Shown here: positions 19,619-47,222 of the stretch, piece by piece
How positions within the stretch are numbered: the stretch's first letter is position 1
Layout: the number at the start of each line of letters is the position of its first letter
Assembly (NCBI GenBank): GCA_035651155.1
Contig: DASRGG010000028.1
Span: 55,041-119,040 of the forward strand
Source of the DNA: Candidatus Limnocylindria bacterium
GTDB lineage: Bacteria > Chloroflexota > Limnocylindria > P2-11E
Direction of reading: 5' to 3'
DNA length: 64,000 nt
Position numbers and translations under genes: made by a program
Notes under the pieces: model-generated
Seen by the model: the letters and a program-made list of their open reading frames with translations, nothing else
The model's database searches: none
What the model was told of the DNA's origin: nothing

Positions 19619-21117
19619 CGGAGCGCCTCCTCGCCGCCGGCGCGCGCCCAGGGACTCGCGGCGCGCCCATCGACCGAGGCCGTCGCGCGACGGGGCCGCG
19701 TCGCGAGGACCGCCACGAGCGCGCCGGCGTGGATCGCGCTCTCCTCGAGCTCCGCGGCGTCCGGCGGCGGCCAGTGCGCCGCGACATATCCGGTGTCGTA
19801 CCGGCCGCTCGCGAAGTCCGGGTCGGCGAGCGCGTGCGCGTGGAAGGGAATGCTCGTCGGCAGGCCGGCGACGATCGTCTCCCGCACGGCGCGCCGCGCG
19901 CGCGAGAGCGCCTCCGCGCGATCGGCGCCCCACACGACGATCTTCGCGAGGAGCGGGTCGTACTCGGTGGGCACGCGCATCCCCTCGAAGAGCGCGTGGT
20001 CGACCCGCACGCCGGGCCCCGCGGGCAGCCGCAGCGCGCCGACGACGCCGCTCGCGGGCACGAAGCCGGCCCGCGCGTCCTCCGCGGTGACGCGCAGCTC
20101 GATCGCGGCGCCACGCGGCCGGACCTCCGCCTGCGTGAAGGGCAGCGGGTCGCCCGCGGCGACGCGGAGCTGCAGCGCCACGAGGTCGAGGCCGGTCGCG
20201 AGCTCGGTCACCGGATGCTCGACCTGCAGGCGCGTGTTCACCTCGAGGAACGAGAACGATCCGTCCTCCGCGACGAGGAACTCCGCCGTCCCGGCGCTGC
20301 GATACCCCGCGGCGCGCGCGATCTTCACCGCCGCGTCGCCGAGACGCGCGCGCAGCGCGGGATCCACGGACGGACCGGGCGTCTCCTCGATGAGCTTCTG
20401 GTGCCGGCGTTGCACGGAGCAGTCGCGCTCGCCGAGCCACACGACGTGACCGTGCGCGTCGGCGATGAACTGCATCTCGACGTGCCGGGCGTGCGCGACG
20501 AGCCGCTCGAGGAAGAGCGCCGGCGTCCCGAAGGCCGATGCCGCCTCGCCCGACGCCATGCGCCACGCGGCCTCGAGCTCGCCCTCGGAACGGACCGCGC
20601 GCATGCCCTTGCCGCCACCGCCGCCCGCGGCCTTCAGCATGACCGGGTAGCCGATCTTCGCGGCGGCCGCGCGCGCGTCGTCGAGGCCGCGCAGCGGATC
20701 GATCGTGCCTTCCGCCACCGGCACGCCCGCCTCGCGCGCGAGACGGCGCGCGCGCGTCTTCTCGCCGAGGAGACGCTGCACCGACGCGGGCGGTCCGACG
20801 AAGACCAGGCCCGCGCGCGCGACGGCGTCCGCGAAGTCCGCGTTCTCGGACAGGAACCCGTAGCCCGGATGGACGGCGTCGCAGCCGGCGCGCGTCGCGA
20901 CGGCGACGAGCTTCTCGACGGCGAGGTAGCTCTCCCGCGGCGCCGCGGGTCCGATCGGATACGCCTCGTCCGCGTACCGCACGTGCAGCGCCTCCCGGTC
21001 CGCGTCGCTGTACACGGCGACGGCGCGCATCCCGAGGTCGCGGCACGCCCGGATGATCCGCAGCGCGATCTCGCCGCGATTCGCGATGAGAACCTTCGTG
21101 AGCGGAGCCGTGGTCAC
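19615..21117 (-). CDS. accC: Biotin carboxylase subunit of acetyl/propionyl-CoA carboxylase
   Basis: (M)TTAPLTKVLIANRGEIALRIIRACRDLG...MLKAAGGGGGKGMR...EVNTRLQVEHPVTE. GTG start at 21117 by residue counting. Confidence 0.9.
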   Translation of the reverse strand: MTTAPLTKVLIANRGEIALRIIRACRDLGMRAVAVYSDADREALHVRYADEAYPIGPAAPRESYLAVEKLVAVATRAGCDAVHPGYGFLSENADFADAVARAGLVFVGPPASVQRLLGEKTRARRLAREAGVPVAEGTIDPLRGLDDARAAAAKIGYPVMLKAAGGGGGKGMRAVRSEGELEAAWRMASGEAASAFGTPALFLERLVAHARHVEMQFIADAHGHVVWLGERDCSVQRRHQKLIEETPGPSVDPALRARLGDAAVKIARAAGYRSAGTAEFLVAEDGSFSFLEVNTRLQVEHPVTELATGLDLVALQLRVAAGDPLPFTQAEVRPRGAAIELRVTAEDARAGFVPASGVVGALRLPAGPGVRVDHALFEGMRVPTEYDPLLAKIVVWGADRAEALSRARRAVRETIVAGLPTSIPFHAHALADPDFASGRYDTGYVAAHWPPPDAAELEESAIHAGALVAVLATRPRRATASVDGRAASPWARAGGEEALR

Positions 21118-21125
21118 GTCCCGCC

Positions 21126-22667
21126 TCAGAGCGGGATGTTGCCGTGCTTGCGTCGCGGGTTCGCGTCGCGCTTTCCCGCGAGCGACCGCAGCGCCGCGAT
21201 GAGCTTCGGCCGGGTCTCGTGCGGCTCGATGATGTCGTCGATGTAGCCACGCGACGCCGCGACGTACGGATTCGCGTACCGCTCGACGTACCGCGCGACG
21301 AGCGCGCGCCGCTCGGCATCCGCGTCCTTCGCCTTCGCGAGCTCGTCCCGGTACAGGATGTTCACGGCGCCCTCCGGCCCCATCACCGCGATCTCGGCGG
21401 AGGGCCACGCGACGTTGTAGTCGCCGCGGAGGTGCTTGCTCGACATGACGTCGTACGCGCCGCCGTAGGCCTTGCGCGTGATGACCGTCAGCTTCGGCAC
21501 GGTCGCCTCGGCGTACGCGTACAGCAGCTTCGCGCCGTTCCGGATGATGCCGCCATGCTCCTGCGCGATCCCCGGCAGGAAGCCCGGCACGTCGACGAAC
21601 GTCACGAGCGGGATGTTGAACGCGTCGCAGAAGCGGACGAAGCGCGCGGCCTTCGTCGAGGCGTCGATGTCGAGCACGCCCGCGAGGATCGTCGGCTGCT
21701 GCGCGACGACGCCGACGCTCTTTCCGTCGAGGCGCGCGAACGCGCAGATGATGTTCCGCGCCCATCCCTCGTGCACCTGGAGGAGCGCGCCGTCGTCGAC
21801 GACCCGGCGGATCACGTCGAGCATGTCGTAGGGCTTGCTCGCCGCCTCGGGCACGACCGTGTCGAGCTCGCGGTCCGCGCGATCGATCGGGTCGTCCGTC
21901 GGGACGACGGGCGCGGGATCGAGGTTGTTCGACGGTAGGTACGCGAGGAGGCGGCGCAGCAGGGCGAGGCACGACACCTCGTCGTCGGCCGCGAAGTGCG
22001 CGACGCCGCTCGTACGCGCGTGGACCTCGGCGCCGCCCAGCTCATCTTGCGTGACGTCCTCGTGCGTCACCGTCTTCACGACGTTCGGCCCGGTGACGAA
22101 CATGTACGAGGTGTCGCGCACCATCGCGACGAAGTCGGTGATCGCGGGCGAGTACACCGCGCCGCCCGCGCACGGCCCGAGGATCGCGGAGATCTGCGGC
22201 ACGACGCCCGAGGCGAGGACGTTGCGGAGGAAGATGTCGGCGTAGCCCCCGAGCGAGACGACGCCCTCCTGGATGCGGGCGCCGCCCGAATCGTTCAGGC
22301 CGACGATGGGCGCTCCGTTGCGGACCGCGAGGTCCATGACCTTGCAGATCTTCGCGGCATGCGCCTCGGCCAGCGAGCCGCCGAAGACGGTGAAGTCCTG
22401 CGAGAACACGTAGACGAGGCGTCCGTCGACGTGACCGAACCCCGTGACGACCCCGTCGCCCATGGCCCGCTCCTCGTCGGCGACGAGCTCGGACGAGCGC
22501 GCCAGGACGAAGGCGTCGAGCTCGGTGAAGGAGCCCTCGTCGAGCAGCAGCTCGATGCGCTCGCGGGCCGTGAGCTTGCCCTTCGCGTGCTGCTGCTGGA
22601 TGCGCTGCTCGCCGCCCCCCAACGCGGCCTTGCGCCGCATCTCCTCGAGCCGCTCGGTCGGACCCAC
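21126..22667 (-). CDS. pccB: Propionyl-CoA carboxylase beta chain (carboxyltransferase)
   Basis: 513 aa reading [47 protein letters not shown]...; full-length carboxyltransferase. Confidence 0.9.
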
Positions 22668-23830: not shown

Positions 23831-23859
23831 GCGCGGCGGCGGCCGCGCGGGCGCTCAGC
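23827..23859. terminator. Candidate bidirectional hairpin between convergent genes
   Basis: Inverted repeat CTGAGCGC-N16-GCGCTCAG. Its arms contain the TGA stop of the GT4 gene and the TCA (TGA on the minus strand) stop of the NrfD-like gene. There is no U-tract. Confidence 0.35.
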
Positions 23860-24745
23860 TCTGGGCGCCGAAGATGACGAGCGCGCGCAGCGCCAGCACG
23901 CCGAGCAGCGCCACCAGCGCGCCCGCGGCCGGCGGCCAGGTCCGCATCGCGCCGGATCGCGCCACGAACGGCGCGGCCAGTCCGAGCACGATGACGATCC
24001 AGAGGAGGCCCCAGATCCCGAGGAGCTTGCCGACCGTCCCCGCGATCGCGACCGACGCGACGAAGAGCACGAGCAGGATCGCCTCGAGGATCACGAAGTT
24101 GCGGTCGGCCACCTCGAGACGCGCGGTCGTACCGGCGTCGACCTCGCGCCGCGAGCGAGCGAGCAGGAGCTGGAGCGCCGCGGAGCCCGCGAGCGCGGAC
24201 GCGAGGAAGAGACCTCCGAGCACCCAGCCCGCGTCGCTCCAGACCGCCTGATTCGAGACGGCGAGCAGGACGCCGGTGTAGCCCGCGACGAAGAGGCCGA
24301 GCCCCGCGCCGATGACGCTCCATACGGCGCCGGCGGTGCCGCGAAGCAGCCGCGCGAGGGGATCGAGCGCGCTGACCGCGCTCTCGCCGAGCGCGCCGAG
24401 GAACGACACGAACGAGAAGAGGCCGAAGCCGAGCAGCGCCCACGACCCGAGCGACATCGGCGACCAGTACTTGAAGGAGAGTCCGCCCTCGCTCGCGTCG
24501 ACGAGCATGTTCGTGAAGCGCAGCGGTGTCCCCAGGTCGGCGACGAGGAAGATCGGGCACGGGATCAGCGCGAGGAAGCCGACGATGAAGGCCGTCCGCG
24601 CGGCGCGCTGGTCCGCGGGCGATCCGACGAGCCGGATGAGCGCGCCGATCGCGTAGCTCCCGCCCGCGAGGCCACCGAAGAAGAAATACGCGAGGATCCA
24701 CCACTCCCAGTTCGGCGGGGCGGCGAAGTGCTCGGCACCGGTCAT
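23855..24745 (-). CDS. NrfD/PsrC-family polytopic membrane anchor subunit (formate dehydrogenase gamma)
   Basis: 296 aa, mostly hydrophobic with about 8 TM helices, in the NrfD-like family. The ATG overlaps the fdhB stop (ATGA). Confidence 0.75.
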   Translation of the reverse strand: MTGAEHFAAPPNWEWWILAYFFFGGLAGGSYAIGALIRLVGSPADQRAARTAFIVGFLALIPCPIFLVADLGTPLRFTNMLVDASEGGLSFKYWSPMSLGSWALLGFGLFSFVSFLGALGESAVSALDPLARLLRGTAGAVWSVIGAGLGLFVAGYTGVLLAVSNQAVWSDAGWVLGGLFLASALAGSAALQLLLARSRREVDAGTTARLEVADRNFVILEAILLVLFVASVAIAGTVGKLLGIWGLLWIVIVLGLAAPFVARSGAMRTWPPAAGALVALLGVLALRALVIFGAQS

Positions 24746-25569
24746 GGGCGCTTCTCCATATCGCTCATGCGGCTGCTCCGGAACGCGAGCACGCCGGCGA
24801 CGAGGCCGGCGACGGCGGTGACGGCGCCACCGAGGTATCCGGGCACGTTGTTCCGGCTCGGCAGCTTGGCGTTCTCCGCGTTCGGCAGGTCATAGGTCTC
24901 CGGCGTGTCCATGAGCAGGAAGAAGGCGTTGAGTCCGCCGTACACGGAGGCATCGCGCCCGTAGAGACGTGCCTGCTTGTAGCCGCCCTGCTGCAGCGCC
25001 GCCATGCGCCTGTCGGCCGCCGCGTGCAGCTCGTCGAGGTAGCCGAACTTGATGGATTCGGTGGGGCACGCCTTCGCGCACGCGGGCTGCATCCCGTTCT
25101 GCAGCCGGTCGTAGCACATCGTGCACTTGTGCGCGGTGCCGGTCTTCTCGTTGAAGCCGATGACGCCGTACGGGCAGGCCGAGATGCAGTCGCGGCAGCC
25201 GTTGCAGACGCTCTGCTGGATGAGGACGGTGTCGAACTCGGTGCGCACGATCGCGTTGGTCGGACACACCTCGAGGCAGGACGCCTGCTGGCAGTGCTTG
25301 CAGACGTCGGACATCATCAGCCACGCCTGGCCGCCGGCGATCGGCGTGGGCGTCGGGATGAAGCCCTTGTTGTCCGGGACCTTCTCGACGAACTGCACGT
25401 GCCGCCAGTTCTGCGCGTCGAGCCGTCCGGTGTTGTCGTAGTCGTCGCGGAACTGGATCGGATCGCCTTCGAGCTGGTTCCATTCCTTGCACGCGACCTC
25501 ACACGCCTTGCAGCCGATGCAAATGCTCGTGTCCGTGAAGAAGCCGACGGGCCGCGCTTCGATCGCCAT
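24742..25569 (-). CDS. fdhB: Formate dehydrogenase iron-sulfur (beta) subunit, 4x[4Fe-4S] ferredoxin type with a C-terminal TM helix
   Basis: MAIEARPVGFFTDTSICIGCKACEVACKEW...CKHCQQASCLEVCP...CNGCRDCISACP...CTMCYDRL...CAKACP, then the hydrophobic tail AVTAVAGLVAGVLAF. ATG at 25569. Confidence 0.88.
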   Translation of the reverse strand: MAIEARPVGFFTDTSICIGCKACEVACKEWNQLEGDPIQFRDDYDNTGRLDAQNWRHVQFVEKVPDNKGFIPTPTPIAGGQAWLMMSDVCKHCQQASCLEVCPTNAIVRTEFDTVLIQQSVCNGCRDCISACPYGVIGFNEKTGTAHKCTMCYDRLQNGMQPACAKACPTESIKFGYLDELHAAADRRMAALQQGGYKQARLYGRDASVYGGLNAFFLLMDTPETYDLPNAENAKLPSRNNVPGYLGGAVTAVAGLVAGVLAFRSSRMSDMEKRP

Positions 25570-25571
25570 CT

Positions 25572-26366
25572 TTAGTACCCCATCACGTTCCGCGCGATCT
25601 TCGCGTAGCCGCGCTCCGCGGCGGCGAGGTCGAGCGGGAGCGCGACGAGCTCGTCGACGAGCGGGACCGCTCGAGGGTCCTTGCGCATGTCGATGGTGAC
25701 CAGATAGGAACGGCAGGTGTCGCACGCGTCCGCTCGGAGATGCGGGAGGCGCGATTCGTCGGCCAGGACCGGCATCTTCCCGCCCTCCGTCTCGCGACAG
25801 CTCGCGCAGGTCATGCGCGCGTACGTCCATTCGCCGGCGCAGCGCGAGCAAACCAGGCGCCGCTGTCCGGTGAGGAGCGCCTCGGCGGTGTCGGTGAACA
25901 CCGCGAGCTGCGGCAGGCCGCCACAGCGCGGGCAGCGCCGCTCGTCGGCGTCGCCGGCCCGTAGCGTCGACGCGATCTCCGGGACGGCCTCGAGGATCGG
26001 AGCCGCGGCGCTCCGCCCGAGGAACGCGTCGGTCGGGCTCTGCTCGACGCCCCGGAGCCAGTCGGCGACGATCGCCTCGAGATCGCCGGAGTGGAACCGC
26101 AGCAGCACGGCCTCGCGCAGCGTCTCGGTGCCCGCGGCCATCGACGCATCCATCACCGCGGGCAGGCCCACGCGGGCCGCGTACGCCGGAAGGTCCGCCG
26201 CCCTCGGCCGATCGCTCGCTGCGCGGTCGAAGACGGAGGCCTGCGCCTCGGCCAGCGCGGCGTACAGGCGCAGGGGCTCCGCGGCGAATTCGTGACGCGG
26301 CGCGAGCTCGCGCGCGCGCTCGGCGCGCCGTGCGAACACGCTCGTCCGCTCGGCCAGGGCGGTCAC
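25572..26366 (-). CDS. fdhE: Formate dehydrogenase accessory protein FdhE
   Basis: 264 aa with CPRCGG...CSRCAGEW...CASCRE...CDTCRSYL, four Cys pairs as in the FdhE family. Confidence 0.85.
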   Translation of the reverse strand: MTALAERTSVFARRAERARELAPRHEFAAEPLRLYAALAEAQASVFDRAASDRPRAADLPAYAARVGLPAVMDASMAAGTETLREAVLLRFHSGDLEAIVADWLRGVEQSPTDAFLGRSAAAPILEAVPEIASTLRAGDADERRCPRCGGLPQLAVFTDTAEALLTGQRRLVCSRCAGEWTYARMTCASCRETEGGKMPVLADESRLPHLRADACDTCRSYLVTIDMRKDPRAVPLVDELVALPLDLAAAERGYAKIARNVMGY

Positions 26367-29300
26367 GAGATCTTCTCGATATTCACGAGGAACGCCTTGA
26401 ACTCGGGCGTCCGCGCATTCGAGTCACCGACGAACGGCGTCAGGGCATTCGCGAGCCAGTTCTTCGACAGCTCGGGATAGCGCTCCGCGGAGATGCCGAC
26501 GAAGCCCCAGTGGATCGGGATGCCGATCGTGTAGACCGTCTTGCCGGCGATCGTCTGCGGACCGAGGCGCTTGGTCACGAGTGCGGCGACCTCGAGCTTG
26601 CCCCGCGCGCTCGACACACGCACGCGGTCGCCGTTCTTGATCCCCTTCTCGCTCGCGAGCTCCTCGGGCACCTCGACGAAGGCCTGCGGCTGCAGGCCGA
26701 CGAGGAGCGGCACGTGCTGCGTCACGTAGTGCTCGTGCTCGGTGAGCCGGTAGCTCGTGGCGACGTAGGGATATTGGTCGACCTTGCCGAAGCGGTTCGG
26801 CCGTCCGGCGGCCTGGTCGTAGAGGAACGCGGTGGGCGACTCGGACTGGCCGGGATGCAGCGGGTTGAGCACCGGCGCCTCGATCGGCTCGTAGTGCTCC
26901 GGGAGCGGCCCGTCGTTCAGCGAGCTCGAGAAGAGCCGGCCCGTGCCCTCGCCGTTCATGATGAACGGGAGCCACGCCGCCGGATCCTTCGGGTTCATCG
27001 TCGGCGGGTAGTCCGGCACGTCACCGACCCAGGTGGTGCCGTCCCACTGGATGCCGGGGCGCTTGGGATCCCAGGGCTTGCCCTCGAGGTCCGCCGAGGC
27101 GCGGTTGTAGAGGACGCGGCGGTTCAGCGGCCAGGACCAGGCCCAACCCGGGTAGAAGCCCATGCCGGTCGGGTCGTTCTTCGCGGGATCCTGCACGCCG
27201 GCGCGCCGCTTCATGAGGTTGCCGGCATCGGGATAGCTGCCGGTGTAGATCCAGTCGCCCGCGGTCGTCGTGCCATCGGCCTTCAGCAGGCCGAAGGAGG
27301 CCATCTGCTTCCCGGTGGAGAGATCCTTCCCGTTGATCTCGCGCGCGATCTCGTCCATGGTCGGCTTCTTCGGATCGTCGAAGTCGACGGTCATCGCGAG
27401 GATCGGGTCCGGGAACTTGCCGCCGGACTGCCGGTACAGCGTCTTGATGCGGTCGAAGAGCTCCATGAAGATCCAGTGGTCGTGACGGGCCTCGCCCGCC
27501 GGCGGGATGACCTGCTCCTTCCACTGCGTCCAACGGCCGCTGTTGGTGAACGAGCCATCCTTCTCGATCCAGTGCGTCGTCGGGAGCATGAAGACCTCGG
27601 TCTGGATCTTCGCGGCGTCCATCCCCGGCGCGCGCCAGAACTCCGAGCTCGTGGTCGGCAGCGGATCCATGATCACGAGCCACTTCAGGTTCGAGAGCGC
27701 CTGCAGGACCTGGTTCGAGTCGGGGCCGATGCTCGTCGCGGTCATCCCGTTCAGGATGACGCCCTCCATCTTGCCCTTGAGGGCCTGGTCGTAGATGGAC
27801 ATCCACGACGAGTTCACCGCGGGCTTCGGGATGAAATGGAACGCGAACTCGTTGTCCTTCGTCGCCGCTCCGCGATACCACGCCTTCAAGAGGCTCACCA
27901 TGAAGCTGCGGTAGTTCGTGCCGAAGAAGTTCCAGGAATTGGGATCGCTCTTCTTCGGCGCGCTCGCCGCGACGTAATCGTCGAGCGTCTTCTGTCCCGG
28001 CGCCGGGATGCGCAGGTAGCCGGGGAGGATGTCCCAGGAGATCGCGTGATCGGTGTTCCCCTGGATGTTCGCGTGCCCGCGCTCGGCATTCATGCCGCCG
28101 CCCGGGCGGCCCATGTTCCCGAGGAGCAGCTGGAGGAGCGCTCCGGAGCGGATGAGCTGGGCACCGGTGGTGTGATGCGTGAGGCCGACGGCGTAGACGA
28201 TCGTCATCACCTTGTCCGGCTTCCCCATCTCGCCGACGATCCGCGCGACGTCGAGGAACTGGAGGATCGGGATGCCGGTGATGCTCGACACGACCTCGGG
28301 CGTGTACCGGCTGTAGTGCTTCTTCATGAGCTGGAACACCGAGCGCGGATCCTGGAGCGTCATGTCGCGCTTGGCCCGCGGCTGCGTCGTGCCCGCCGGG
28401 CCCGCCAGGGCGTCGCCCTCCGTCTCGTACGCCCAGGTGGAGATGTTGTAGGAGCGCGTCGCCTTGTCGTAGCCGGAGAAGAGGCCATCGGTGAAATCGA
28501 ACCCCTGCTTCACGATGAAGGAGGCGTTGGTGTAGTTCTTGACGTACTCATCGTGGTAGAGCCTGTTCTGGAGGACGTAGTTGATGAGCCCGCCGAAGTA
28601 GGCGACGTCGGTGCCGGTGCGGATGCGCAGGTAGGTGTCCGCGACCGCCGAGGTGCGCGTGTAGCGCGGATCGGCGTGGATGATCTTCGCGCCGCCGCCG
28701 TTCCCGGGTCCCTTCGTCGGGTCGAGCTTCGCCTTCACGAACCACTGGAAGCCGACCGGGTGCGCCTCCGCCGGATTCGCGCCATTGATGAGGATGACGT
28801 CGGCGTTCTTGATGTCACGCCAGTGGTTCGTCATCGCTCCCCGACCGAATGTGGCGGCCAAACTGACCACCGTGGGACCGTGTCAGACCCGAGCTTGCTG
28901 TTCTATGTGCACGATGCCGAACGTGCGCATCAGCTTCGTGGCGAGATACCCCTCTTCACTGCTGAATGCGGCGCCGCCGGCAAAGGCGATCCCCTCGGTG
29001 CGATTCACGACGTTGCCGTTCGCGTCTTGCGCCACGAACGTCCGGTCGCGCGAGTCCTTGAAGTTCTGGGCGATCTTGCCCAGCATGAAGTCCCAATCCT
29101 TCTCTTCCCACTTCGTGCTTCCCGGAGCGCGGTAGAGCGGCTTCTCCACCCGGCGCGAGCTCGTGGCGAGCTGCATCGCGGTGGCGCCCTTGGGGCAGAG
29201 ACGGCCTTCGTTGATCGGGCTGTCCGGATCGCCCTCGATCTGGAGCAGCCGCGTCTTCCCGCTCGCATCCTGCTTCGTGTAGGCGATGAGCCCGCAGCCC

Positions 29301-29476
29301 ACCGCGCAGTAGGGACACACGGAGTGGACTTCCTTCGCGCCGGCGAGCCGGAACTCCTGCTGGATCTTCTTCGCCGCGCGCAGATCGAACCCGAGCGGGT
29401 TCGCGAACGGGATCATCGCGAGACCGGCGCTGCCGGCGCCGGCCTTCAGAAGCTGACGGCGTGTGAGATCCGTCAT
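26363..29476 (-). CDS. fdhA: Formate dehydrogenase alpha subunit (molybdopterin, Tat-exported), selenocysteine-containing; the in-frame UGA is at 28883..28885
   Basis: ORFs 28883..29476 and 26363..28870 are in the same frame and are separated only by a TGA. The upstream part carries a Tat motif (TRRQLLKAG) and the Fe-S Cys cluster. Across the TGA the sequence reads ...IEQQARV-[TGA]-HGPTVVSLAATFGRGAMTNHW, which aligns to E. coli FdnG ...NQARVUHGPTVASLGPTFGRGAMTNHW. Confidence 0.85.
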
Positions 29477-29541
29477 GGCGTGGCGACTGTTGTACTCCGC
29501 CCGCGGCAGCAGTCAAGGGAAGACCGCGGTACTTTGCCGGC

Positions 29542-29829
29542 ATGAACGAGTTCTTCGCGTCGCTCGGCACGCGCTGGCACGAGGCCGCGAGGCGCCGGGG
29601 CGCGACGATCGAGGCGCCCGCCCTCGATCCCGCCGTGGCCGAGGAGCTGCTCCAGCTCGCGCGGGTCGTCGCGCACGCGAAGGAGCGGAGCTACGCGCCA
29701 CTCGCCAGCTTCACCGCAGGAGTGGCCGTGGAGCGGCTGCGCGCCGCGATGGCCCTCGACCCCGCGGCGGTGGCCGCGTACATCCGCGAGGTCCGCGAGG
29801 CGCTCGAGCGGGACCTCGGTGCCGGCTGA
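29542..29829 (+). CDS. Hypothetical small protein (95 aa)
   Basis: Divergent from fdhA. Composition is not obviously frame noise (MNEFFASLGTRWHEAARRRGATIEAP...). No family assigned. Confidence 0.35.
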   Translation: MNEFFASLGTRWHEAARRRGATIEAPALDPAVAEELLQLARVVAHAKERSYAPLASFTAGVAVERLRAAMALDPAAVAAYIREVREALERDLGAG

Positions 29830-30289
29830 TCCGGCGCCGCCGGCGCCGCGCATCGGCGTCCGGCTCACGCTCCCGGGCGATGCGGGCGAGCTCTTCGCGG
29901 ACGTACGCGCGCTCGAGGCGGCGAACGTGGATGCGCTGTGGGCCGATGCCGCCGACGCGGACCCCTACGTCGTCCTCGCGGCATGCGCGGCGGTCACCTG
30001 GCGAGTGGCGCTCGTGGCGTTCGGCGCGCCGAACGGCTCGGGTCGCGCGACGTGCGAGCTCCTCGCGCGCGGGCGGCTCGTGATCGCGGAGGACGCCGCG
30101 CGCTCCGGCGAGCGCTGGATCCGCCAAGGGTTCCCAGAGAGCAAGCTCGCCTGGCGCGAGGCGCGCGCCGCCGCGCTGAAGGATGGCGCGACCGGGATCG
30201 TGCTCCCGAACGATCCGCGCCTCTTGGATCTCCTGCGCAATCCCGACGTCGACGACGATCGCTCCGATCTGGACATCGCGGTCGGCTAG
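29819..30289 (+). CDS. Luciferase-like monooxygenase (LLM) class protein, short or truncated
   Basis: RIGVRLTLPGDAGELFADVRALEAANVDALWADAAD...VVLAACAAVTWRVAL resembles the N-terminus of F420/flavin-dependent LLM oxidoreductases, but at 156 aa it is about half the usual length. Confidence 0.35.
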   Translation: MPADPAPPAPRIGVRLTLPGDAGELFADVRALEAANVDALWADAADADPYVVLAACAAVTWRVALVAFGAPNGSGRATCELLARGRLVIAEDAARSGERWIRQGFPESKLAWREARAAALKDGATGIVLPNDPRLLDLLRNPDVDDDRSDLDIAVG

Positions 30290-31149
30290 GACGTCCCCGG
30301 CTCACCCGTGCCGCGCGCTCGTATGCGCTCGGGCCCGGAGTACACGTTGAAGCTCTCACCCCGCAGGAATCCGACGAGCGTCAGTCCGAAGCGCACGGCC
30401 GTCGCGACCGCGAGGCTCGACGGCGCGCCCACCGCGACGAGCATCGGGATCCCGGCGGCGACCGCCTTCTGCACGAGCTCGTAGCCCCCGCGACCGCTCA
30501 CCACGAGGATCGTTCCCGCGAGCGGCACGCGGCGATCGAGGACCGCGCGGCCGACGACCTTGTCGACGGCGTTGTGCCGCCCGATGTCCTCGCGGAGCGT
30601 GACGAGCTCGCCGCCCGACGTGAAGAGACCGGCGGCGTGCAGCCCTCCGGTGAGATCGAAGAGCCGCTGCCGCTCGCGCAGCCGCTCGGCCAGCGGCGGC
30701 AGCACCGCCGCGTCGACCACGGGCCCCGGCGCGAGCGGGGGGTGATCGTGCGCGAGATCGTCCAGCGTCGTCGCGCCGCACACGCCGCACGCCGAGCTCG
30801 ACAGGAAGGAGCGGCGCGGCCGGCGCGCGGCCGTCGTCGCGAGATGGACGTCGACGGCGTTCGATTCGAGCAGGTCGGACGCGACGGTCACGCGCTCCTC
30901 GCGCTCGCCGGCCTCGGCCGATATGCGCAGCCCGGCCACGTCGTCCAGCGAGGTGATGACGCGCTCCGCGTGGAGCAGCCCGAGCGCGAGCTCGATGTCG
31001 CTCCCCGGCGTGCGCATGATCACGCTGAGCGGCTCGCCGTCGAGGAGGAGCTGCAGCGGCTCCTCGGCGGCGATGTCGTCGCCGGCCGCGCTCCACGAGC
31101 CTCCCTCGTACCGGCCGATGCGAACGCGCCGCGACGGCGCTCGTGCCAT
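30286..31149 (-). CDS. fdhD: Formate dehydrogenase accessory sulfurtransferase FdhD
   Basis: 287 aa with SACGVCG, GGLHAAGLF and GRHNAVDK, the FdhD hallmarks. Confidence 0.88.
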   Translation of the reverse strand: MARAPSRRVRIGRYEGGSWSAAGDDIAAEEPLQLLLDGEPLSVIMRTPGSDIELALGLLHAERVITSLDDVAGLRISAEAGEREERVTVASDLLESNAVDVHLATTAARRPRRSFLSSSACGVCGATTLDDLAHDHPPLAPGPVVDAAVLPPLAERLRERQRLFDLTGGLHAAGLFTSGGELVTLREDIGRHNAVDKVVGRAVLDRRVPLAGTILVVSGRGGYELVQKAVAAGIPMLVAVGAPSSLAVATAVRFGLTLVGFLRGESFNVYSGPERIRARGTGEPGTS

Positions 31150-31158
31150 GCGAAGAGG

Positions 31159-31782
31159 TTAGTCGCGTGGCGCGCGGAGCGAGGCGACGAACGCCTCGTA
31201 GTCCGCGGGCGTGTCGAGATCGGCGACCTCGTCCGGCGCGATGCCCGCCTCGACGAGCTCGCCCTCGCCGACGGAGAGGACGTCGAGCGTCGCGAGGCAG
31301 GCGCTCACCCGCCGGCCGCCGCCGTCGAGGAACGCGGTGATCCGGGATGCCGCGCCCCGCCCGTAGGCGGCGCACGCCGGCTGATCGACGCCGCCGACGC
31401 GCGGCACCGCGGCGTCGTGACGGCCCAGCCGGTCGAGCAGCAGGCTCGCGAGCGCCGCCGACGCGCGCGGCATGTCGCACGCGAGCACGAACGCGCGCTC
31501 CGTCCGCATCGCCAGCAGCCCGGCCTCCATTCCCGCGAGCGGTCCCGCGCCCGGATGCCGGTCGGCCACCACGCGCGCGCCCGACACGTGAGCGCCGCAC
31601 ACGATCGTCTCGGCGAACGCCGGACCGAGGCGGCGCGCGATCCACTCGACGAGCGTGCCGCCCGCGACGGGGAGGGTGGCCTTGTCGCGTCCCATCCGGA
31701 CGGAGCGCCCGCCCGCGAGGAGAACGAGCGTCGCGTCGCGCGTCAGCGGTACGACCCGGGCGCGTGACGCCACCCGCTCCAC
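31159..31782 (-). CDS. mobA: Molybdenum cofactor guanylyltransferase
   Basis: LVLLAGGRSVRMGRDKATL...GPLAGM...ACDMP. The start may be the downstream GTG (VVPLTRD...). Confidence 0.8.
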   Translation of the reverse strand: MERVASRARVVPLTRDATLVLLAGGRSVRMGRDKATLPVAGGTLVEWIARRLGPAFAETIVCGAHVSGARVVADRHPGAGPLAGMEAGLLAMRTERAFVLACDMPRASAALASLLLDRLGRHDAAVPRVGGVDQPACAAYGRGAASRITAFLDGGGRRVSACLATLDVLSVGEGELVEAGIAPDEVADLDTPADYEAFVASLRAPRD

Positions 31783-35000: not shown

Positions 35001-35945
35001 CTATTGCCCGAGCAGCTCGTCGATCGCAGCGTAGGGATCGAGCTCGCGCCGCGCGACCCGCTCGACCGCGCGCTCGACGCGCTCGTCGCCGAGACGATCG
35101 CGGAGCCGCCGCACGAGCGCCTCGCGCAGGACGTCCTCGATCTCCGCGCGGGCGGCGTCTCGCCGGCGGCGCTCGCGCTCGCCGCTCTCCGCGGCCCACG
35201 CGGCGTGGCGCTCGATCGCGTCGGCGAGCTCGGGCACGCCGTCGCCCGTCGCCGCGACCGTGCGCACGATGGGCGGCTTCCAGGAGGTGCGCGCTCTGCC
35301 GAGGCTCAGCATCTGCGCGAGATCGCGCGCGGCGTCGTCGGCGCCGGGGCGGTCCGCCTTGTTCACGACGAGGACGTCCGCGATCTCGAGCACACCCGCC
35401 TTGATCGCCTGGATGTCGTCGCCGAGGCCGGGGACGGTGACGAGGCACACCGTGTCCGCGACACGCACGACCTCGACCTCCTCCTGCCCCACTCCCACCG
35501 TCTCGACGAGCACGACGCCGTAGCCGAGCGCGTCGAGGACGTTGACCACGCGGATGGTCGTCCGCGCGAGGCCGCCGGAGTGTCCGCGGCTCGCCATGCT
35601 GCGGATGAAGAGACCCTCGTCGAGGACGCGATCCGACATGCGGATGCGGTCGCCCAGCAGCGCGCCGCCGCTGAACGGGCTCGACGGATCGACCGCGACG
35701 ACGGCGACGCGCGCGCCCTGTTCGCGGTACGCACCGGCGAGGCGGTTCACGAGCGTGCTCTTCCCGCCGCCGGGCGGACCGGTCACGCCGACGACGCGGG
35801 CCGTGCCCGTCTTCGGATACAGCTGCCGCAGGACGTCCGCGGCGCCGAGCTCCTCGTTCTCGACGATCGTGAGGAGACGCGCGATCGCGCGCTTGTCGCC
35901 CTCGCGCGCGTGCGCGAGGAGCTCGTCCGACGCTGTCTGGGTCAT
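35001..35945 (-). CDS. meaB: Methylmalonyl-CoA mutase-associated GTPase MeaB (ArgK family)
   Basis: C-terminal 314 aa of ORF 35001..37106, including GVTGPPGGGKST and VNKAD. The ATG at 35945 overlaps the acyl-CoA dehydrogenase stop (ATGA). Confidence 0.88.
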   Translation of the reverse strand: MTQTASDELLAHAREGDKRAIARLLTIVENEELGAADVLRQLYPKTGTARVVGVTGPPGGGKSTLVNRLAGAYREQGARVAVVAVDPSSPFSGGALLGDRIRMSDRVLDEGLFIRSMASRGHSGGLARTTIRVVNVLDALGYGVVLVETVGVGQEEVEVVRVADTVCLVTVPGLGDDIQAIKAGVLEIADVLVVNKADRPGADDAARDLAQMLSLGRARTSWKPPIVRTVAATGDGVPELADAIERHAAWAAESGERERRRRDAARAEIEDVLREALVRRLRDRLGDERVERAVERVARRELDPYAAIDELLGQ

Positions 35946-37078
35946 CCCTGCTGCTCCACGAGATCGCGGGCGATCACGATGCGCTGCACCTCGCTGGTGC
36001 CCTCGCCGATCTCCATGAGGCGCGCGTCGCGCAGATGGCGCTCGATCGGATAGTCGCGCAGGTAGCCGTATCCGCCGAGGACCTGGAGGCACTCGTCGGC
36101 GGCGCGGCTCGCCGCCTCGGACGCGTACAGCTTCGCCTTCGATGCCTCGATGCGGAACGGGCGCCCCGCGTCGGCGAGCGCCGCCGCCCGATGCACGAGC
36201 AGCCGCGCCGCGTCCAGCTCGGTGCGCGCGGTCGCGAGCTTCCACTGGATCATCTCGAACCGCGCGATGGGACGGCCGAACTGCGTGCGCTGCTTCGCGT
36301 ACGCGACGGCGGTCTCGAGCGAGGCGCGGCCGAGACCCAGCGCCAGCGCGCCGATGCCGATGCGGCCCTTGTCGAGCACGAGGCGCACGTCCGCGAAGGC
36401 GTCGCCCTCGACGCCGATGCGGTCGGCCTCGGGGACACGGGCGTCCTCGAGCACGAGCTGCGACGTGTCGGACGCGTGGAGTCCCATCTTCCGTTCGCGC
36501 TTGCCGGGCCGGACACCCGCCGTGCCCCGGGCGATCCCGAAAGCCGAGAGCCGGCGCTCGGACGTCGCGACGTTCACCACGTAGAAGCCGGCGAGCGAGG
36601 CGTTGGTGATGAACTGCTTCGTCCCGCTCACGACGTACGCGCCGCCGTCCCTGCGCGCGCGGCTCCGCACCGCCGCGGCGTCGGAGCCCGAGCCGGGCTC
36701 GGTCAGCGCCCAGGCGCCGAGGTAGTCGCCGCGCGCGAGCGGCGGCAGCCAGCGACGCTTCTGCTCGTCGGACGCGCCGACCAGCAGGTGGCCGATGCAC
36801 AGCGAGTTGTGCGCCGCGAGCGTGAGCGCGACCGAGCCGTCGGCCGCGCCGAGCTCCTCCATGACCATCGCGATCGTGAGCGTGTCGAGCCCGGCGCCGC
36901 CGAGCTCGGTCGGGACCGCGAGCCCGGTGAGGCCGAGCGCGGCGAGCTCGGGAAGGAGCGCCATCGGGAACTCGCCCGCATCGCTCCAGGCGTCGGCGTT
37001 CGGCGCGATGCGCGTGCGCGCGAACTCGCGGACCGTGTCGCGGACGAGCAGCTGGTCGTTCCGGTAGGTGAAGTTCAC
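35942..37078 (-). CDS. Acyl-CoA dehydrogenase
   Basis: 378 aa of typical ACAD fold (GAWALTEPGSGSDAAAV...GGYGYLRDYPIERHLRDARL). Confidence 0.88.
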   Translation of the reverse strand: MNFTYRNDQLLVRDTVREFARTRIAPNADAWSDAGEFPMALLPELAALGLTGLAVPTELGGAGLDTLTIAMVMEELGAADGSVALTLAAHNSLCIGHLLVGASDEQKRRWLPPLARGDYLGAWALTEPGSGSDAAAVRSRARRDGGAYVVSGTKQFITNASLAGFYVVNVATSERRLSAFGIARGTAGVRPGKRERKMGLHASDTSQLVLEDARVPEADRIGVEGDAFADVRLVLDKGRIGIGALALGLGRASLETAVAYAKQRTQFGRPIARFEMIQWKLATARTELDAARLLVHRAAALADAGRPFRIEASKAKLYASEAASRAADECLQVLGGYGYLRDYPIERHLRDARLMEIGEGTSEVQRIVIARDLVEQQG

Positions 37079-37485
37079 GCGGTCCCGGACCGCGCGCCCT
37101 GCGCATACGCCGCGCGAACGTCGGCGTCGACCGTTGGAAGGATCTCGTCGACGAGCTTCTGGTCTTCTTCGAGGATCGCGCGGTCGACCGACCAGGCCCG
37201 CTCCCGCGCCGCCGAGATGCGCTGCCGCTGGTCCGCCGGCAGCTGCGCGAACGCGACGATCCGCGCGCGGGTGAGCCGCGTGCGCTCCTTGACGTCGTCG
37301 ACGCGCGTGAGCTCGCGGATCTGCGGGGTGAGCGCGCCGACGCGCGCGATGTCGCTGGGCACCGCCGCGGTCAGCTCGAAGCGCTTCTTCCAGAACTCGA
37401 TCGCCGTGCGCTCATCGCTACCGCGAAGATGCGCGAGCCCCTCGTCCACGGGCCGGGTGTCCTTCTTGCCGCCGAACAGTCCCAT
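37075..37485 (-). CDS. Hypothetical protein (136 aa) inside the acyl-CoA operon
   Basis: MGLFGGKKDTRPVDEGLAHLRGSDERTAIEFWKKRFELTAAV... has normal protein composition. The stop overlaps the ACAD start (ATGA). No family assigned. Confidence 0.45.
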   Translation of the reverse strand: MGLFGGKKDTRPVDEGLAHLRGSDERTAIEFWKKRFELTAAVPSDIARVGALTPQIRELTRVDDVKERTRLTRARIVAFAQLPADQRQRISAARERAWSVDRAILEEDQKLVDEILPTVDADVRAAYAQGARSGTA

Positions 37486-37497
37486 ATATCGCCTCCT

Positions 37498-37908
37498 TTA
37501 GACCCCGACCCTTCGCTTCCCCACCGCCTCGTTCACGTACCGCACGATCTCTTCCAATGAGGCGCCGGGCGGAAAGACCCGCTCCACGCCCACCTTCGCC
37601 AGACCGGGGACGTCGGCCTCCGGGATGATGCCGCCGCCGAAGAGCAGCACGTCGTGCATGCCCTTCTCGCGCATGAGCTCCGACACCCTCGGGAAGATGT
37701 AGTTGTGCGCGCCGGAGAGGAGGCTGATGCCGATGGCGTCGGCGTCCTCCTGCAGCGCCGTCTCGACGACCTGCTCGGGCGTGAGATGCACGCCCGTGTA
37801 GATGACCTCCATACCCGCGTCGCGGAGCGCCCGCGCGACCACCTTCGCGCCGCGGTCGTGCCCGTCGAGGCCCGCCTTCGCGACGACCACCCGGATCGGC
37901 CGCTTCAC
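37498..37908 (-). CDS. icmB: B12-binding small subunit of a split acyl-CoA mutase (isobutyryl-CoA mutase small subunit-like)
   Basis: 136 aa reading [29 protein letters not shown]...[10 protein letters not shown], with the DxHxxG cobalamin-binding motif. Confidence 0.85.
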
Positions 37909-38058
37909 AGCGTCACCCCGAGATCCTTGTGCGGATGCGCGACGACCTCACGCGGCGTCGTGCCGGACGGCAGCCGCTCGTCGCATCGCTCCGCGGGCAG
38001 CGCGTCGACGACCGAGCGGGTCGAGAGATACAGGTGCTCGACGCGCGCGGGCAGCTCG

Positions 38059-38087
<29 letters not shown>
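37905..38087 (-). CDS. Possible coupled micro-ORF (60 aa) between icmA and icmB
   Basis: GTG start inside the icmA 3' end and a stop that overlaps the icmB ATG (ATGA). It fills a 150-nt gap that is otherwise non-coding in a tightly packed operon. Composition is not R/A-rich noise, and there is no homology. Confidence 0.2.
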
Positions 38088-39842
<1,755 letters not shown>

Positions 39843-39846
<4 letters not shown>

Positions 39847-40994
39847 GCCGCTGAAAGGAGCGAGCGCGCGATGACGAGGCGCTGCACCTCGCTCGTCCCC
39901 TCGTAGATCGTGGTGGCGCGCGCGTCGCGCGCGTAGCGCTCGATCTCGTAGTCGCGCATGAAGCCGTAGCCGCCGAACACCTGGACCGCGTCGTAGGTCA
40001 CGCGCTGCGCGGCTTCGCTCGCAAAGAGCTTCGCCATCGACGCCTCGCGCGTGAAGGGACGACCCGCGTCGCGCAGCCACGCCGCGCGATGCGCGAGCAG
40101 CCGCGCGGCGTCGACCTCCACGCGCGCGCGCGCGAGCGCGAAGCGGACCATCTCGAACGACAGGATCGACGCGCCGAACTGCTCGCGTCCGCGTCCGTAA
40201 CGGATCGCGCGCTCGATGGCCGCGCGGGCGATGCCGACCGATTGCGCGGCGATCCCGATGCGTCCGCCGTCAAGGCCGGCCATCGCGATGCCGAAACCCT
40301 TCCCCACCTCCCCGAGCACCGCGTCCGGGCCGACGCGCGCGCCGTCGAGGACGAGCGCGCTCGTGTCGGACGCGAGCAGACCGGTCTTCGGCTCGGGCGG
40401 ACCGATCGAAAGGCCGGGCGCGTCGCTCGGCACGAGGAACGCGGTGATGCCCGCGTGGGGCCTTCCGCTCTCGCGCTCCCCGACCCGCGCGAGGACGATG
40501 AAGAGCGGCGCGTAGCGGGCGTTGGTGATGAACTGCTTCTGGCCGGTGATGCGCCAGCCGTCACCGTCGCGGACGGCGGCCGCGCGCAGCGACGCGGCGT
40601 CGCTGCCGGAGGACGGCTCGGTGAGCGCGAACGCGCCGAGGCCGGAGCCGTCGCGCAGCGCCGGCAGCCAGCGCGCCCGCTGCGCCGCCGTGCCGTACCG
40701 GACGATCGATCCCGCGACGATGCCGCTGTTCACGGAGACGCCCACCGCGAGCGACGGCCAGGCGGCGGCGAGCTCCTCGAGCACGAGCGCGAACGCGACC
40801 GTCGACGCGCCGAGGCCGCCGTCGCGCTCCGGCGTCGTCATGCCGAGCACGCCGAGCTCGCCGAGCCCCCGGATCACCTCGCGCGGCAGCGTGCCGGCGC
40901 GCTCGGCGTCGGCGATCTTCGGCGCGAGCTCCCGCGCCCACCCGCGGACGGCGAGCGCGAGCTCGCGATCGGTCTCCGACGGCACGGGACGCAC
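39843..40994 (-). CDS. Acyl-CoA dehydrogenase
   Basis: 383 aa of ACAD fold ([15 protein letters not shown]...[21 protein letters not shown]). Confidence 0.88.
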
Positions 40995-42643: not shown

Positions 42644-42644
42644 G

Positions 42645-42761
42645 TCACACGATCTCCTCGTCGTTTGCGTACATCCATGCGATCCACGCCGCGCCACCCG
42701 CGACGGCGAGCGCGACGATCGCGCCGACGATCCACGCGATGGTGCTTGCGTCGAATTCCAT
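42645..42761 (-). CDS. 38-aa single-TM micro-ORF wedged between the Fe-S oxidoreductase and etfB
   Basis: MEFDASTIAWIVGAIVALAVAGGAAWIAWMYANDEEIV. The ATG lies 2 nt after the Fe-S oxidoreductase TAG, and its stop lies 1 nt before the etfB ATG. The etfB ribosome-binding site is inside its 3' end. Confidence 0.35.
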   Translation of the reverse strand: MEFDASTIAWIVGAIVALAVAGGAAWIAWMYANDEEIV

Positions 42762-42763
42762 TG

Positions 42764-44785: not shown

Positions 44786-44792
44786 CAGCGGC

Positions 44793-46329: not shown

Positions 46330-46339
46330 CGGTGCGCCC

Positions 46340-47203: not shown

Positions 47204-47222
47204 CCGCCGCGCTCGGCCCGCA

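What the first reader, a model, noticed from the sequence alone, without database searches (positions are those of the whole stretch)
26363..29476. Formate dehydrogenase alpha is a selenoprotein: in-frame UGA at 28883..28885 between two annotated ORFs
The six-frame track splits this gene into ORF 28883..29476 (Tat signal plus Fe-S N-terminus) and ORF 26363..28870. They are in the same frame and are separated only by a TGA. Across the TGA the sequence reads ...IEQQARV-U-HGPTVVSLAATFGRGAMTNHW. This matches the selenocysteine context of E. coli FdnG (...NQARVUHGPTVASLGPTFGRGAMTNHW) almost residue for residue. A bacterial SECIS hairpin is expected in the ~40 nt 3' of the UGA, at about 28840..28882. 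The genome should therefore also encode selA, selB, selC and selD. Standard gene callers will either truncate this protein or call it as two genes.
Basis: partly seen in the sequence, partly recalled or inferred. Interest (0 to 1): 0.55.

Follow-up and report, generated by a model that had tools for sequence, protein, structure and literature searches.

The report
Selenocysteine UGA in formate dehydrogenase gene
The two adjacent reading frames are one gene for the catalytic subunit of a membrane-bound formate dehydrogenase whose internal UGA is read as selenocysteine, a textbook case of recoding that automatic annotation of this soil-bacterium contig has split into two genes.

Summary
An in-frame TGA at 28883..28885 (minus strand) joins ORFs 28883..29476 and 26363..28870 into one 1037-codon gene. 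The joined protein matches E. coli FdnG (PDB 1kqf) end to end (E 1e-292). It also passes the curated FDH-N alpha model TIGR01553 (1286 bits, cutoff 814), and the TGA aligns with the catalytic selenocysteine.

Rfam places SECIS_3 at 28830..28888. Its core is an 8-bp hairpin at 28853..28871, 11 nt after the UGA, in the same register as in E. coli fdoG. In the 79 related genomes that reach the site, the codon is always TGA. The hairpin shows compensatory changes at synonymous third positions and strongly reduced synonymous variation.

TGA is otherwise the normal stop codon here (26 of 45 genes). The public gene call for this contig splits the gene into 197-aa and 823-aa products.

No selA, selB, selC or selD lies in the ~82 kb of the contig I could read, so that prediction stays untested.

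The complex differs from E. coli Fdh-N. The gene order is fdnG(Sec)-fdhE-fdnH-like-NrfD-like, which fits the 'FqoABC' type already described bioinformatically in Chloroflexi. This is ordinary biology: a new member of a well-known kind.

The parts
26363..29476 (-). fdnG/fqoA-type formate dehydrogenase alpha subunit, one gene of 1037 codons plus stop, with Sec at codon 198
   Evidence: 1kqf_A E 1.2e-292, residues 3-1035; TIGR01553 1286 bits, cutoff 814. The public call splits it into 197 aa and 823 aa.
28883..28885 (-). In-frame UGA codon read as selenocysteine (residue 198), followed by His
   Evidence: It aligns to Sec196 of E. coli FdnG/FdoG. The codon is TGA in 79 of 79 relatives.
28830..28888 (-). 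Bacterial SECIS element (Rfam RF01989 SECIS_3), full-length model match
   Evidence: 63.0 bits, equal to the gathering score of 63, E 2.4e-12 over the whole window.
28853..28871 (-). Core SECIS hairpin: 8-bp stem GGUGGUCA/UGGCCGCC with apical loop GUU, starting 11 nt after the UGA
   Evidence: fold; 98.4% of cells paired, compensatory G:C to C:G and to A:U/U:A, 0 of 500 shuffles; synonymous-site entropy 0-0.5 bit.
29444..29464 (-). Twin-arginine (Tat) export motif TRRQLLK, residues 5-11
   Evidence: It aligns to SRRQFFK of FdnG.
29195..29317 (-). N-terminal [4Fe-4S] binding motif C54-x2-C57-x3-C61...C94
   Evidence: It aligns to the FdnG Cys motif. PF04879 Molybdop_Fe4S4 is recorded on the public 197-aa product.
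25572..26366 (-). FdhE-like accessory protein gene, overlapping the alpha stop by 4 nt
   Evidence: TIGR01562 85.7 bits, below the cutoff of 187.65. (Pfam FdhE_C 46.2 and FdhE_N 30.6 bits, both above their cutoffs). Conserved in position in 77 loci.
24742..25569 (-). FdnH-like four-cluster Fe-S beta subunit with one C-terminal TM helix
   Evidence: TIGR01582 160.8 bits, below the cutoff of 334.7; 1kqf_B E 3.8e-41; TM helix 245-263.
23855..24745 (-). NrfD_2-like integral membrane subunit (about 8 TM helices, 1 His, 1 Cys), occupying the position of FdnI
   Evidence: PF14589 28.1 bits, cutoff 27; TM helices; conserved in 61 loci. No PDB sequence match.
30286..31149 (-). fdhD, the sulfurtransferase needed for FDH cofactor sulfuration
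   Evidence: NF001943 280 bits, cutoff 269.
31159..31782 (-). mobA-like molybdenum cofactor guanylyltransferase
   Evidence: TIGR02665 91.3 bits, below the cutoff of 151.85. PF12804 on the public call.

Best explanation
Window 26363..29476 (minus strand) is a single gene for the molybdopterin catalytic subunit of a Tat-exported, membrane-anchored formate dehydrogenase. Codon 198 is UGA and is decoded as selenocysteine, the molybdenum/tungsten ligand of the active site. Decoding would work as in E. coli. The mRNA hairpin that starts 11 nt after the UGA (28853..28871, GUU loop) binds the specialised elongation factor SelB, which carries Sec-tRNA(Sec). SelB delivers it to the ribosome in competition with release factor 2. 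The finished alpha subunit receives its cofactor with help from MobA and FdhD, is checked by FdhE, and is exported by Tat together with the tail-anchored FdnH-like Fe-S subunit. Electrons from formate then pass through the Fe-S clusters to quinone at the NrfD-like membrane subunit. Shown here: the single reading frame, the homology, the position of the UGA, the conserved and covarying hairpin, and the conserved operon. Inferred: SelB binding, actual selenium insertion, the direction of catalysis and the quinone coupling.
For: Homology of the joined protein:
- It matches FdnG (1kqf_A) over residues 3-1035 at E 1.2e-292, and Sec-containing Desulfovibrio FdhA at about 1e-260.
- It scores 1286 bits on TIGR01553, cutoff 814.
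- U-H and the RGH arginine are conserved in the alignment.

The SECIS element:
- Rfam SECIS_3 gives a full-length hit at 28830..28888, E 2.4e-12.
- The hairpin has the same register and loop type as E. coli fdoG, with two more stem pairs changed on both sides relative to E. coli.

Evidence from relatives:
- 79 of 79 relatives (74-86% aa identity) keep TGA in the context ARV-TGA-HGPTV.
- 98.4% of hairpin cells are paired. G21:C33 changes to C:G in 6 distinct sequences, and G18:C36 changes to A:U and U:A. All of these are synonymous third positions, and 0 of 500 shuffles reach this.
- Third-position entropy is 0-0.5 bit over codons +4 to +10, against about 1-1.6 bit in flanking four-fold codons. 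The rare codons AGT and TTG are fixed.

Context in the window:
- TGA terminates 26 of 45 other genes, so the code is not reassigned.
- The maturation genes fdhD, mobA and fdhE flank the gene.

Literature: FdhA is the most widespread bacterial selenoprotein, present in 67 of 75 Sec-using genomes, and Chloroflexi are listed with selenoproteins (PMC1794560).
Against: - No selA, selB, selD or tRNA-Sec was found in the window, in the additional ~18 kb of the same contig, or next to the operon in the closest relatives. Only one Methylomirabilota relative has a linked selD. This is weak evidence, because sel genes are often unlinked and less than 2% of a typical genome was visible.
- The 59-nt element does not fold more stably than shuffled sequence (z -0.04).
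- The Rfam score equals the gathering threshold exactly, and it is partly driven by the conserved coding sequence.
- The lower stem of the Rfam model is only 62.6% paired in this clade.
- There are no experimental data on selenium insertion.
Confidence: 0.93

Rival explanations
1. The SECIS-flanked UGA is recoded, but not with selenocysteine. For example, Cys could be inserted by a SelB-dependent tRNA with a UCA anticodon, as has been reported for some bacteria. That report is from my own recollection of work by Mukai and colleagues and was not checked here.
For: No sel genes or tRNA-Sec were visible in the 82 kb examined. Everything seen at the mRNA level (UGA plus hairpin) would look the same under this reading.
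Against: It is a rare exception to the standard mechanism. FdhA is the commonest true selenoprotein (PMC1794560). Selenoproteins have been reported in Chloroflexi (PMC1794560) and tRNA-Sec species as well (PMC5389517). One relative has selD 4 kb from the operon.
Confidence: 0.03
2. The TGA is a genuine stop. The locus would then be a pseudogene, or a naturally split enzyme made of a 197-aa Fe-S fragment and a separately initiated 823-835-aa fragment, as the public annotation implies.
For: The public gene call lists two products. A GTG lies 12 nt after the TGA. TGA is the commonest stop in this window.
Against: The TGA and both flanking peptide motifs are conserved in frame in 79 of 79 relatives across several phyla. 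The stop removes exactly the metal-ligand residue. The downstream fragment would lack the Tat signal. The GTG lies inside the conserved HGPTV motif, which is internal in FdnG. The hairpin covaries and its synonymous sites are frozen, which a plain stop would not require.
Confidence: 0.02
3. The TGA is a sequencing or assembly error for TGC/TGT (Cys), and the enzyme is a Cys-type FDH.
For: The window comes from a metagenome assembly. Cys-type FDH alpha subunits exist; Sec-to-Cys conversions are recorded in PMC1794560.
Against: The same codon occurs in 79 independently assembled genomes. It is accompanied by a hairpin under RNA-level selection, which a Cys codon would not need.
Confidence: 0.005

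Closest known systems
E. coli formate dehydrogenase-N/-O alpha subunits FdnG/FdoG (PDB 1kqf; NCBIfam TIGR01553)
   Same: Full-length homology (E 1.2e-292), Tat signal, N-terminal 4Fe-4S motif, and Sec-His at the active site encoded by UGA. The SECIS hairpin starts 11 nt after the UGA and has a GUY loop. The 59-nt element is 46/59 identical to E. coli fdoG. fdhD and fdhE are associated.
   Different: Sec is residue 198 rather than 196. The hairpin is a continuous 8-bp, GC-rich stem rather than the E. coli stem with a bulged U. The partner subunits differ: there is no FdnI/FdoI cytochrome b, and fdhE lies between the alpha and beta genes instead of after the gamma gene.
FqoABC, the tentatively named formate:quinone oxidoreductase with an NrfD-like subunit (Calisto & Pereira 2021, PMC8076601). 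A similar FDH-alpha/beta/NrfD cluster is described in Rhodococcus equi (PMC13332983).
   Same: An FdnG-like subunit, an FdnH-like subunit and an NrfD-family membrane protein of about 8 TM helices, encoded together. The paper's FqoC2 group is from Chloroflexi. The beta subunit has a C-terminal TM helix, as modelled for R. equi.
   Different: I did not compare the sequence directly with the published FqoC sequences. Those papers do not discuss the Sec codon or the intercalated fdhE. The complex has never been characterised biochemically.
Periplasmic Sec-containing FdhAB of Desulfovibrio/Megadesulfovibrio (PDB 6sdr, 8cm4, 1h0h)
   Same: Sec-containing, Tat-exported alpha subunit (E about 1e-260) with a small Fe-S beta subunit.
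   Different: Those enzymes are soluble, tungsten- or molybdenum-containing heterodimers with no membrane subunit. Here the beta subunit is tail-anchored and a membrane subunit is encoded.
Mycobacterial selenoprotein FDH (PMC13449736)
   Same: High-GC Terrabacteria in which UGA is the main stop codon, FDH alpha is the sole predicted selenoprotein, and the SECIS is found with Rfam. That paper also notes that standard annotation misses it.
   Different: A different lineage. In mycobacteria the selABCD genes were found in the genomes, which could not be checked here.

Membership tests
Formate dehydrogenase-N type alpha subunit (FdnG/FdoG, TIGR01553) | Full-length match above the curated equivalog cutoff | tested here: met
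   1286.3 bits against a cutoff of 814.2, profile positions 2-1009 of 1009. 1kqf_A E 1.2e-292.
Formate dehydrogenase-N type alpha subunit (FdnG/FdoG, TIGR01553) | Twin-arginine signal and N-terminal CxxCxxxC...C 4Fe-4S motif | tested here: met
   TRRQLLK at residues 5-11; C54, C57, C61 and C94 align to the FdnG motif.
Formate dehydrogenase-N type alpha subunit (FdnG/FdoG, TIGR01553) | Sec (or Cys) metal ligand followed by His, plus the conserved active-site Arg | tested here: met
   ARV-U-HGPTV aligns to FdnG Sec196-His197. The ...aeRGHaniqG motif aligns to alRGHsniqG.
Formate dehydrogenase-N type alpha subunit (FdnG/FdoG, TIGR01553) | Formate oxidation activity with a Mo/W-bisMGD cofactor | not testable with these tools
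   Only domain evidence is available (PF00384 and PF01568 on the public product).
Bacterial selenoprotein gene (SelB/SECIS-dependent UGA recoding) | In-frame UGA at the position of Sec in characterised homologues | tested here: met
   Conserved in 79 of 79 relatives.
Bacterial selenoprotein gene (SelB/SECIS-dependent UGA recoding) | SECIS stem-loop immediately 3' of the UGA at the correct spacing | tested here: met
   Rfam SECIS_3 at 63.0 bits, equal to the gathering score. The hairpin starts 11 nt after the UGA, as in E. coli fdoG. Covariation and frozen synonymous sites support it. Caveats: the folding energy is no better than shuffles and the lower stem is weak.
Bacterial selenoprotein gene (SelB/SECIS-dependent UGA recoding) | Genome encodes selA, selB, selC (tRNA-Sec) and selD | not testable with these tools
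   None lies in the window or in contig positions 45217-126912. The queries were validated against PDB 3u0o, 5lzb and 8uzw.
Bacterial selenoprotein gene (SelB/SECIS-dependent UGA recoding) | Selenium actually incorporated at the UGA | not testable with these tools
   This needs 75Se labelling or mass spectrometry.
E. coli-type Fdh-N heterotrimer (FdnGHI) | FdnH-type beta subunit (four Fe-S clusters, C-terminal TM helix) | tested here: inconclusive
   It is a clear homologue (1kqf_B E 3.8e-41; TM helix 245-263), but TIGR01582 scores 160.8 bits, below the equivalog cutoff of 334.7.
E. coli-type Fdh-N heterotrimer (FdnGHI) | FdnI di-haem cytochrome b gamma subunit | tested here: not met
   The gene in that position is NrfD_2-like (PF14589). 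It has about 8 TM helices and a single His. No cytochrome b family hit was found among the window ORFs scanned.
FqoABC-type formate:quinone oxidoreductase (tentative family, PMC8076601) | Clustered FdnG-like, FdnH-like and 8-TMH NrfD-like genes | tested here: met
   The same order is kept in 61 or more related loci.
FqoABC-type formate:quinone oxidoreductase (tentative family, PMC8076601) | Sequence membership of the membrane subunit in the published FqoC groups | not tested

The most novel reading that the evidence does not exclude
The most novel reading not excluded is that this lineage keeps the UGA-plus-hairpin signal but lacks a canonical selenocysteine pathway, and inserts cysteine or another residue at the UGA through a variant tRNA/SelB pair. 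A milder version is that a nearly identical Sec-dependent FqoABC operon, shared at 74-86% identity among soil MAGs assigned to many phyla, marks recent wide horizontal spread of selenium-dependent formate oxidation in aerobic soils.
Probability: 0.04. Interest if true: 0.45.

Novelty: new member of a known kind. Interest (0 to 1): 0.15.

Why it matters
The main value is for annotation. The catalytic subunit of a respiratory formate dehydrogenase in an uncultured soil Chloroflexota (Limnocylindria-like) genome is recorded publicly as two truncated proteins. The same applies to at least 79 related MAGs. Joining the two products restores the active-site residue. It also flags these organisms as selenium users and predicts that they carry selABCD. 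In addition, it adds a Sec-containing example to the still uncharacterised NrfD-anchored 'FqoABC' type of formate dehydrogenase. None of this changes current understanding of selenocysteine recoding.

Tried and rejected
- **tRNA-Sec search:** ARAGORN found no tRNA of any kind in the window, in the 60 largest of the 80 related loci or in the contig extensions.
- **sel gene search:** tblastn with E. coli SelA, SelB and SelD found nothing in the window or the extensions. The only hits were one selD in a Methylomirabilota relative and N-terminal GTPase-domain hits to SelB.
- **Walking along the source contig:** The look-up of encoding contigs reached about 9.8 kb to the left and 7.9 kb to the right of the window. 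Two look-ups with the MoxR-like gene failed although the gene is on the contig. The extensions hold peptide and sugar ABC transporters, cell-wall genes and FHA-domain proteins, and no sel genes.
- **Thermodynamic test of the 59-nt element:** it was uninformative in this 72% GC sequence (z -0.04).
- **Full Rfam two-helix structure:** its lower helix is not maintained in this clade, so I rely on the upper hairpin.
- **Global reassignment of UGA:** rejected, because UGA ends 26 of 45 genes.
- **Other selenoprotein genes in the window:** the scan found none.
- **PDB sequence search with the membrane subunit:** it found nothing.
Full report
**Observation.** On the minus strand the sequence reads ...GCT CGG GTC TGA CAC GGT CCC ACG GTG GTC AGT TTG GCC GCC..., with TGA at window 28885..28883. 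Translating 26363..29476 in one frame gives 1038 codons with a single internal stop, at codon 198, in the context IEQQARV*HGPTVVSLAATFGRGAMTNHW. The window is 71.6% G+C. Both ORFs carry the GC3-rich signature of real genes. A 1071-aa plus-strand ORF over the same region is an antisense shadow.

**Identity of the protein.** With the stop replaced by Cys for searching, the 1037-aa protein matches E. coli FdnG (1kqf_A) over residues 3-1035 at E 1.2e-292. It matches the selenocysteine-containing FdhA of Desulfovibrio at about 1e-260. In that alignment the stop lies on the Sec position of FdnG (printed as x) and is followed by the conserved His. The Tat motif (TRRQLLK against SRRQFFK), the CxxCxxxC...C Fe-S motif and the RGH arginine are all conserved. 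The curated NCBIfam equivalog for the FDH-N alpha subunit, TIGR01553, scores 1286 bits against a cutoff of 814 over the whole profile.

**The recoding signal.** Rfam's SECIS_3 model (RF01989) matches 28830..28888 on the minus strand over its full length. The score is 63.0 bits, exactly the gathering threshold, with E 2.4e-12 for the whole window, and it is the only Rfam hit in 64 kb. Because the model consensus is itself the FdnG coding sequence, this hit is not independent of the protein homology. The 59-nt segment also does not fold more stably than shuffles in this GC-rich context (z -0.04). I therefore looked for RNA-level evidence in relatives.

**Evidence from relatives.**
- A scan of one genome per species returned 80 loci whose alpha subunits are 74-86% identical. 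The closest are soil Chloroflexota / Ca. Limnocylindria MAGs.
- In all 79 loci that reach the site the codon is TGA, within ARV-TGA-HGPTV.
- The 46 distinct 59-nt sequences (alignment A1) support an 8-bp hairpin at columns 18-25/29-36, which is window 28853..28871. Its stem is GGUGGUCA/UGGCCGCC, its loop is GUU, and it starts 11 nt after the UGA.
- 98.4% of cells are paired. Pair 21:33 switches from G:C to C:G in six distinct sequences, and pair 18:36 switches to A:U and U:A. No shuffle out of 500 reaches the observed covariation, and slid registers drop to 25-61% pairing.
- All covarying positions are synonymous third positions (Thr, Val, Ala, Ala).
- Third-position entropy falls to 0-0.5 bit across codons +4 to +10. 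Four-fold codons on either side show about 1-1.6 bit. The rare codons AGT (Ser, forming the loop) and TTG (Leu) are fixed in these high-GC genomes.
- The lower helix of the Rfam model is only 62.6% paired in this clade, so the upper hairpin is the supported part.
- In an annotated E. coli genome the fdoG copy has TGA at codon 196 in the same peptide context. It has a hairpin in the same register with a GUC loop. 46 of 59 nucleotides are identical, and two further stem pairs differ on both sides from the window.

**Alternatives.**
- UGA is not reassigned: it terminates 26 of 45 predicted genes in the window. This is also the only place in the window where a single in-frame TGA separates two segments with genuine coding signal.
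- A real stop or a split enzyme is hard to reconcile with conservation of the codon, of both flanking motifs and of the hairpin across 79 genomes. The downstream fragment would also lack both the metal ligand and the Tat signal.
- An assembly error is excluded by the same conservation.
- What cannot be distinguished here is true Sec insertion from rare SelB-dependent insertion of another residue.

**sel genes.**
- ARAGORN finds no tRNA in the window.
- NCBIfam scans of essentially all plausible ORFs show no SelA, SelB or SelD.
- tblastn with E. coli SelA, SelB and SelD finds nothing in the window.
- The window is positions 55026-119025 of ENA contig ERZ27279688:k141_334850, which is 189,399 bp long.
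- Look-ups with edge genes extended the view to positions 45217-126912. These extensions again hold no sel genes and no tRNAs.
- Among relatives, only a Methylomirabilota locus has selD, about 4 kb from the operon.
- The prediction that the genome encodes selABCD is therefore untested rather than contradicted.
- The literature supports the prior expectation. FdhA is the most widespread bacterial selenoprotein, present in 67 of 75 Sec-using genomes, and Chloroflexi are listed with selenoproteins (PMC1794560). tRNA-Sec species have been described in Chloroflexi (PMC5389517). In high-GC mycobacteria, FDH is the sole selenoprotein and is routinely missed by annotation (PMC13449736).

**Context and mechanism.** The minus-strand neighbourhood, in gene order:
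- mobA-like (31159..31782).
- fdhD (30286..31149; 280 bits, cutoff 269).
- Two small plus-strand ORFs. One is DUF6457 in the public call.
- The alpha gene.
- An FdhE-like gene that overlaps the alpha stop (25572..26366).
- An FdnH-like Fe-S subunit with a C-terminal TM helix (24742..25569; 1kqf_B E 3.8e-41).
- A 296-aa NrfD_2-like membrane protein with about 8 TM helices and a single His (23855..24745).

The order alpha-fdhE-beta-NrfD is kept in the relatives wherever the contig allows: FdhE in 77 loci, beta in 70 and NrfD in 61.

No FdnI-type cytochrome b is present, so this is not an E. coli-type FdnGHI enzyme. It fits the three-subunit complex tentatively named FqoABC (formate:quinone oxidoreductase), whose FqoC2 group comes from Chloroflexi (PMC8076601). 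It also fits the FDH-alpha/beta/NrfD cluster modelled in Rhodococcus equi (PMC13332983).

The likely mechanism has these steps:
1. SelB bound to Sec-tRNA(Sec) recognises the hairpin and inserts Sec at codon 198.
2. MobA, FdhD and FdhE mature the enzyme.
3. Tat exports it with the tail-anchored beta subunit.
4. Electrons from formate reach quinone at the NrfD-like subunit.

The SelB interaction, selenium insertion and quinone coupling are inferred from the homologous systems and are not shown here.

**Verdict.** The finding is real and correctly interpreted, but it is a textbook phenomenon: a new member of a known kind. Its value lies in correcting the annotation and in adding a Sec-containing example to the uncharacterised FqoABC class. 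Interest is about 0.15.

Noticed in passing
window 23855..26366 (minus strand); L001-L080: The operon is alpha(Sec)-fdhE-fdnH-like-NrfD_2-like. It has no FdnI cytochrome b, and fdhE is inserted between the alpha and beta genes. The order is conserved in more than 60 related loci. It matches the tentatively named FqoABC complex (PMC8076601).
   Followed up: partly
L001-L080: Alpha subunits are 74-86% identical at the protein level across MAGs labelled Chloroflexota/Limnocylindria, Dormibacterota, Methylomirabilota, Verrucomicrobiia, Eisenbacteria, Gemmatimonadales, Acidobacteriota and even Saccharimonadales. This suggests recent horizontal transfer or mis-binning of soil contigs.
   Followed up: no
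window 29542..29829 (+) and 29819..30289 (+): Two small divergent ORFs lie between fdhD and the alpha gene. The first is PF20058 (DUF6457) in the public call, and the second has no family. tblastn matches to both proteins recur in many relatives, DUF6457 in 44 loci and the 156-aa ORF in 52, in varying positions.
   Followed up: partly
window 26330..29545 (+): A 1071-aa open frame lies antisense to the whole alpha gene. It is a shadow ORF typical of 72% GC DNA and not a gene. Its GC3 pattern also produced the only other hit in the in-frame-TGA scan, at + 27483.
   Followed up: yes
L034 16449..17459 (minus strand): A Methylomirabilota relative carries a SelD homologue (34.6% identity to E. coli SelD, E 6e-42) about 4 kb downstream of the same FDH operon. 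It is the only sel gene linked to the operon in about 1.1 Mb of related loci.
   Followed up: no
window 28830..28852 and 28872..28882 (lower part of the Rfam SECIS_3 model): The lower helix of the Rfam model is only 62.6% paired in this clade, and several pairs are never formed. The family model appears tuned to proteobacterial fdnG/fdoG.
   Followed up: partly
window 14026..22667 and 35942..48398: The surroundings are rich in acyl-CoA metabolism genes: two methylmalonyl-CoA mutase large-subunit genes, an epimerase, a carboxyltransferase with biotin carboxylase and BCCP, three acyl-CoA dehydrogenases, an ETF subunit, a thiolase and 3-hydroxybutyryl-CoA dehydrogenase. This is ordinary and unrelated to the finding.
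   Followed up: no
window 61915..62877 (minus strand): The MoxR-like ATPase gene is listed as a 320-aa called gene on the source contig. An exact-sequence look-up of that product nevertheless returned 'not on record'. This is a limitation of the index and not biology.
   Followed up: yes
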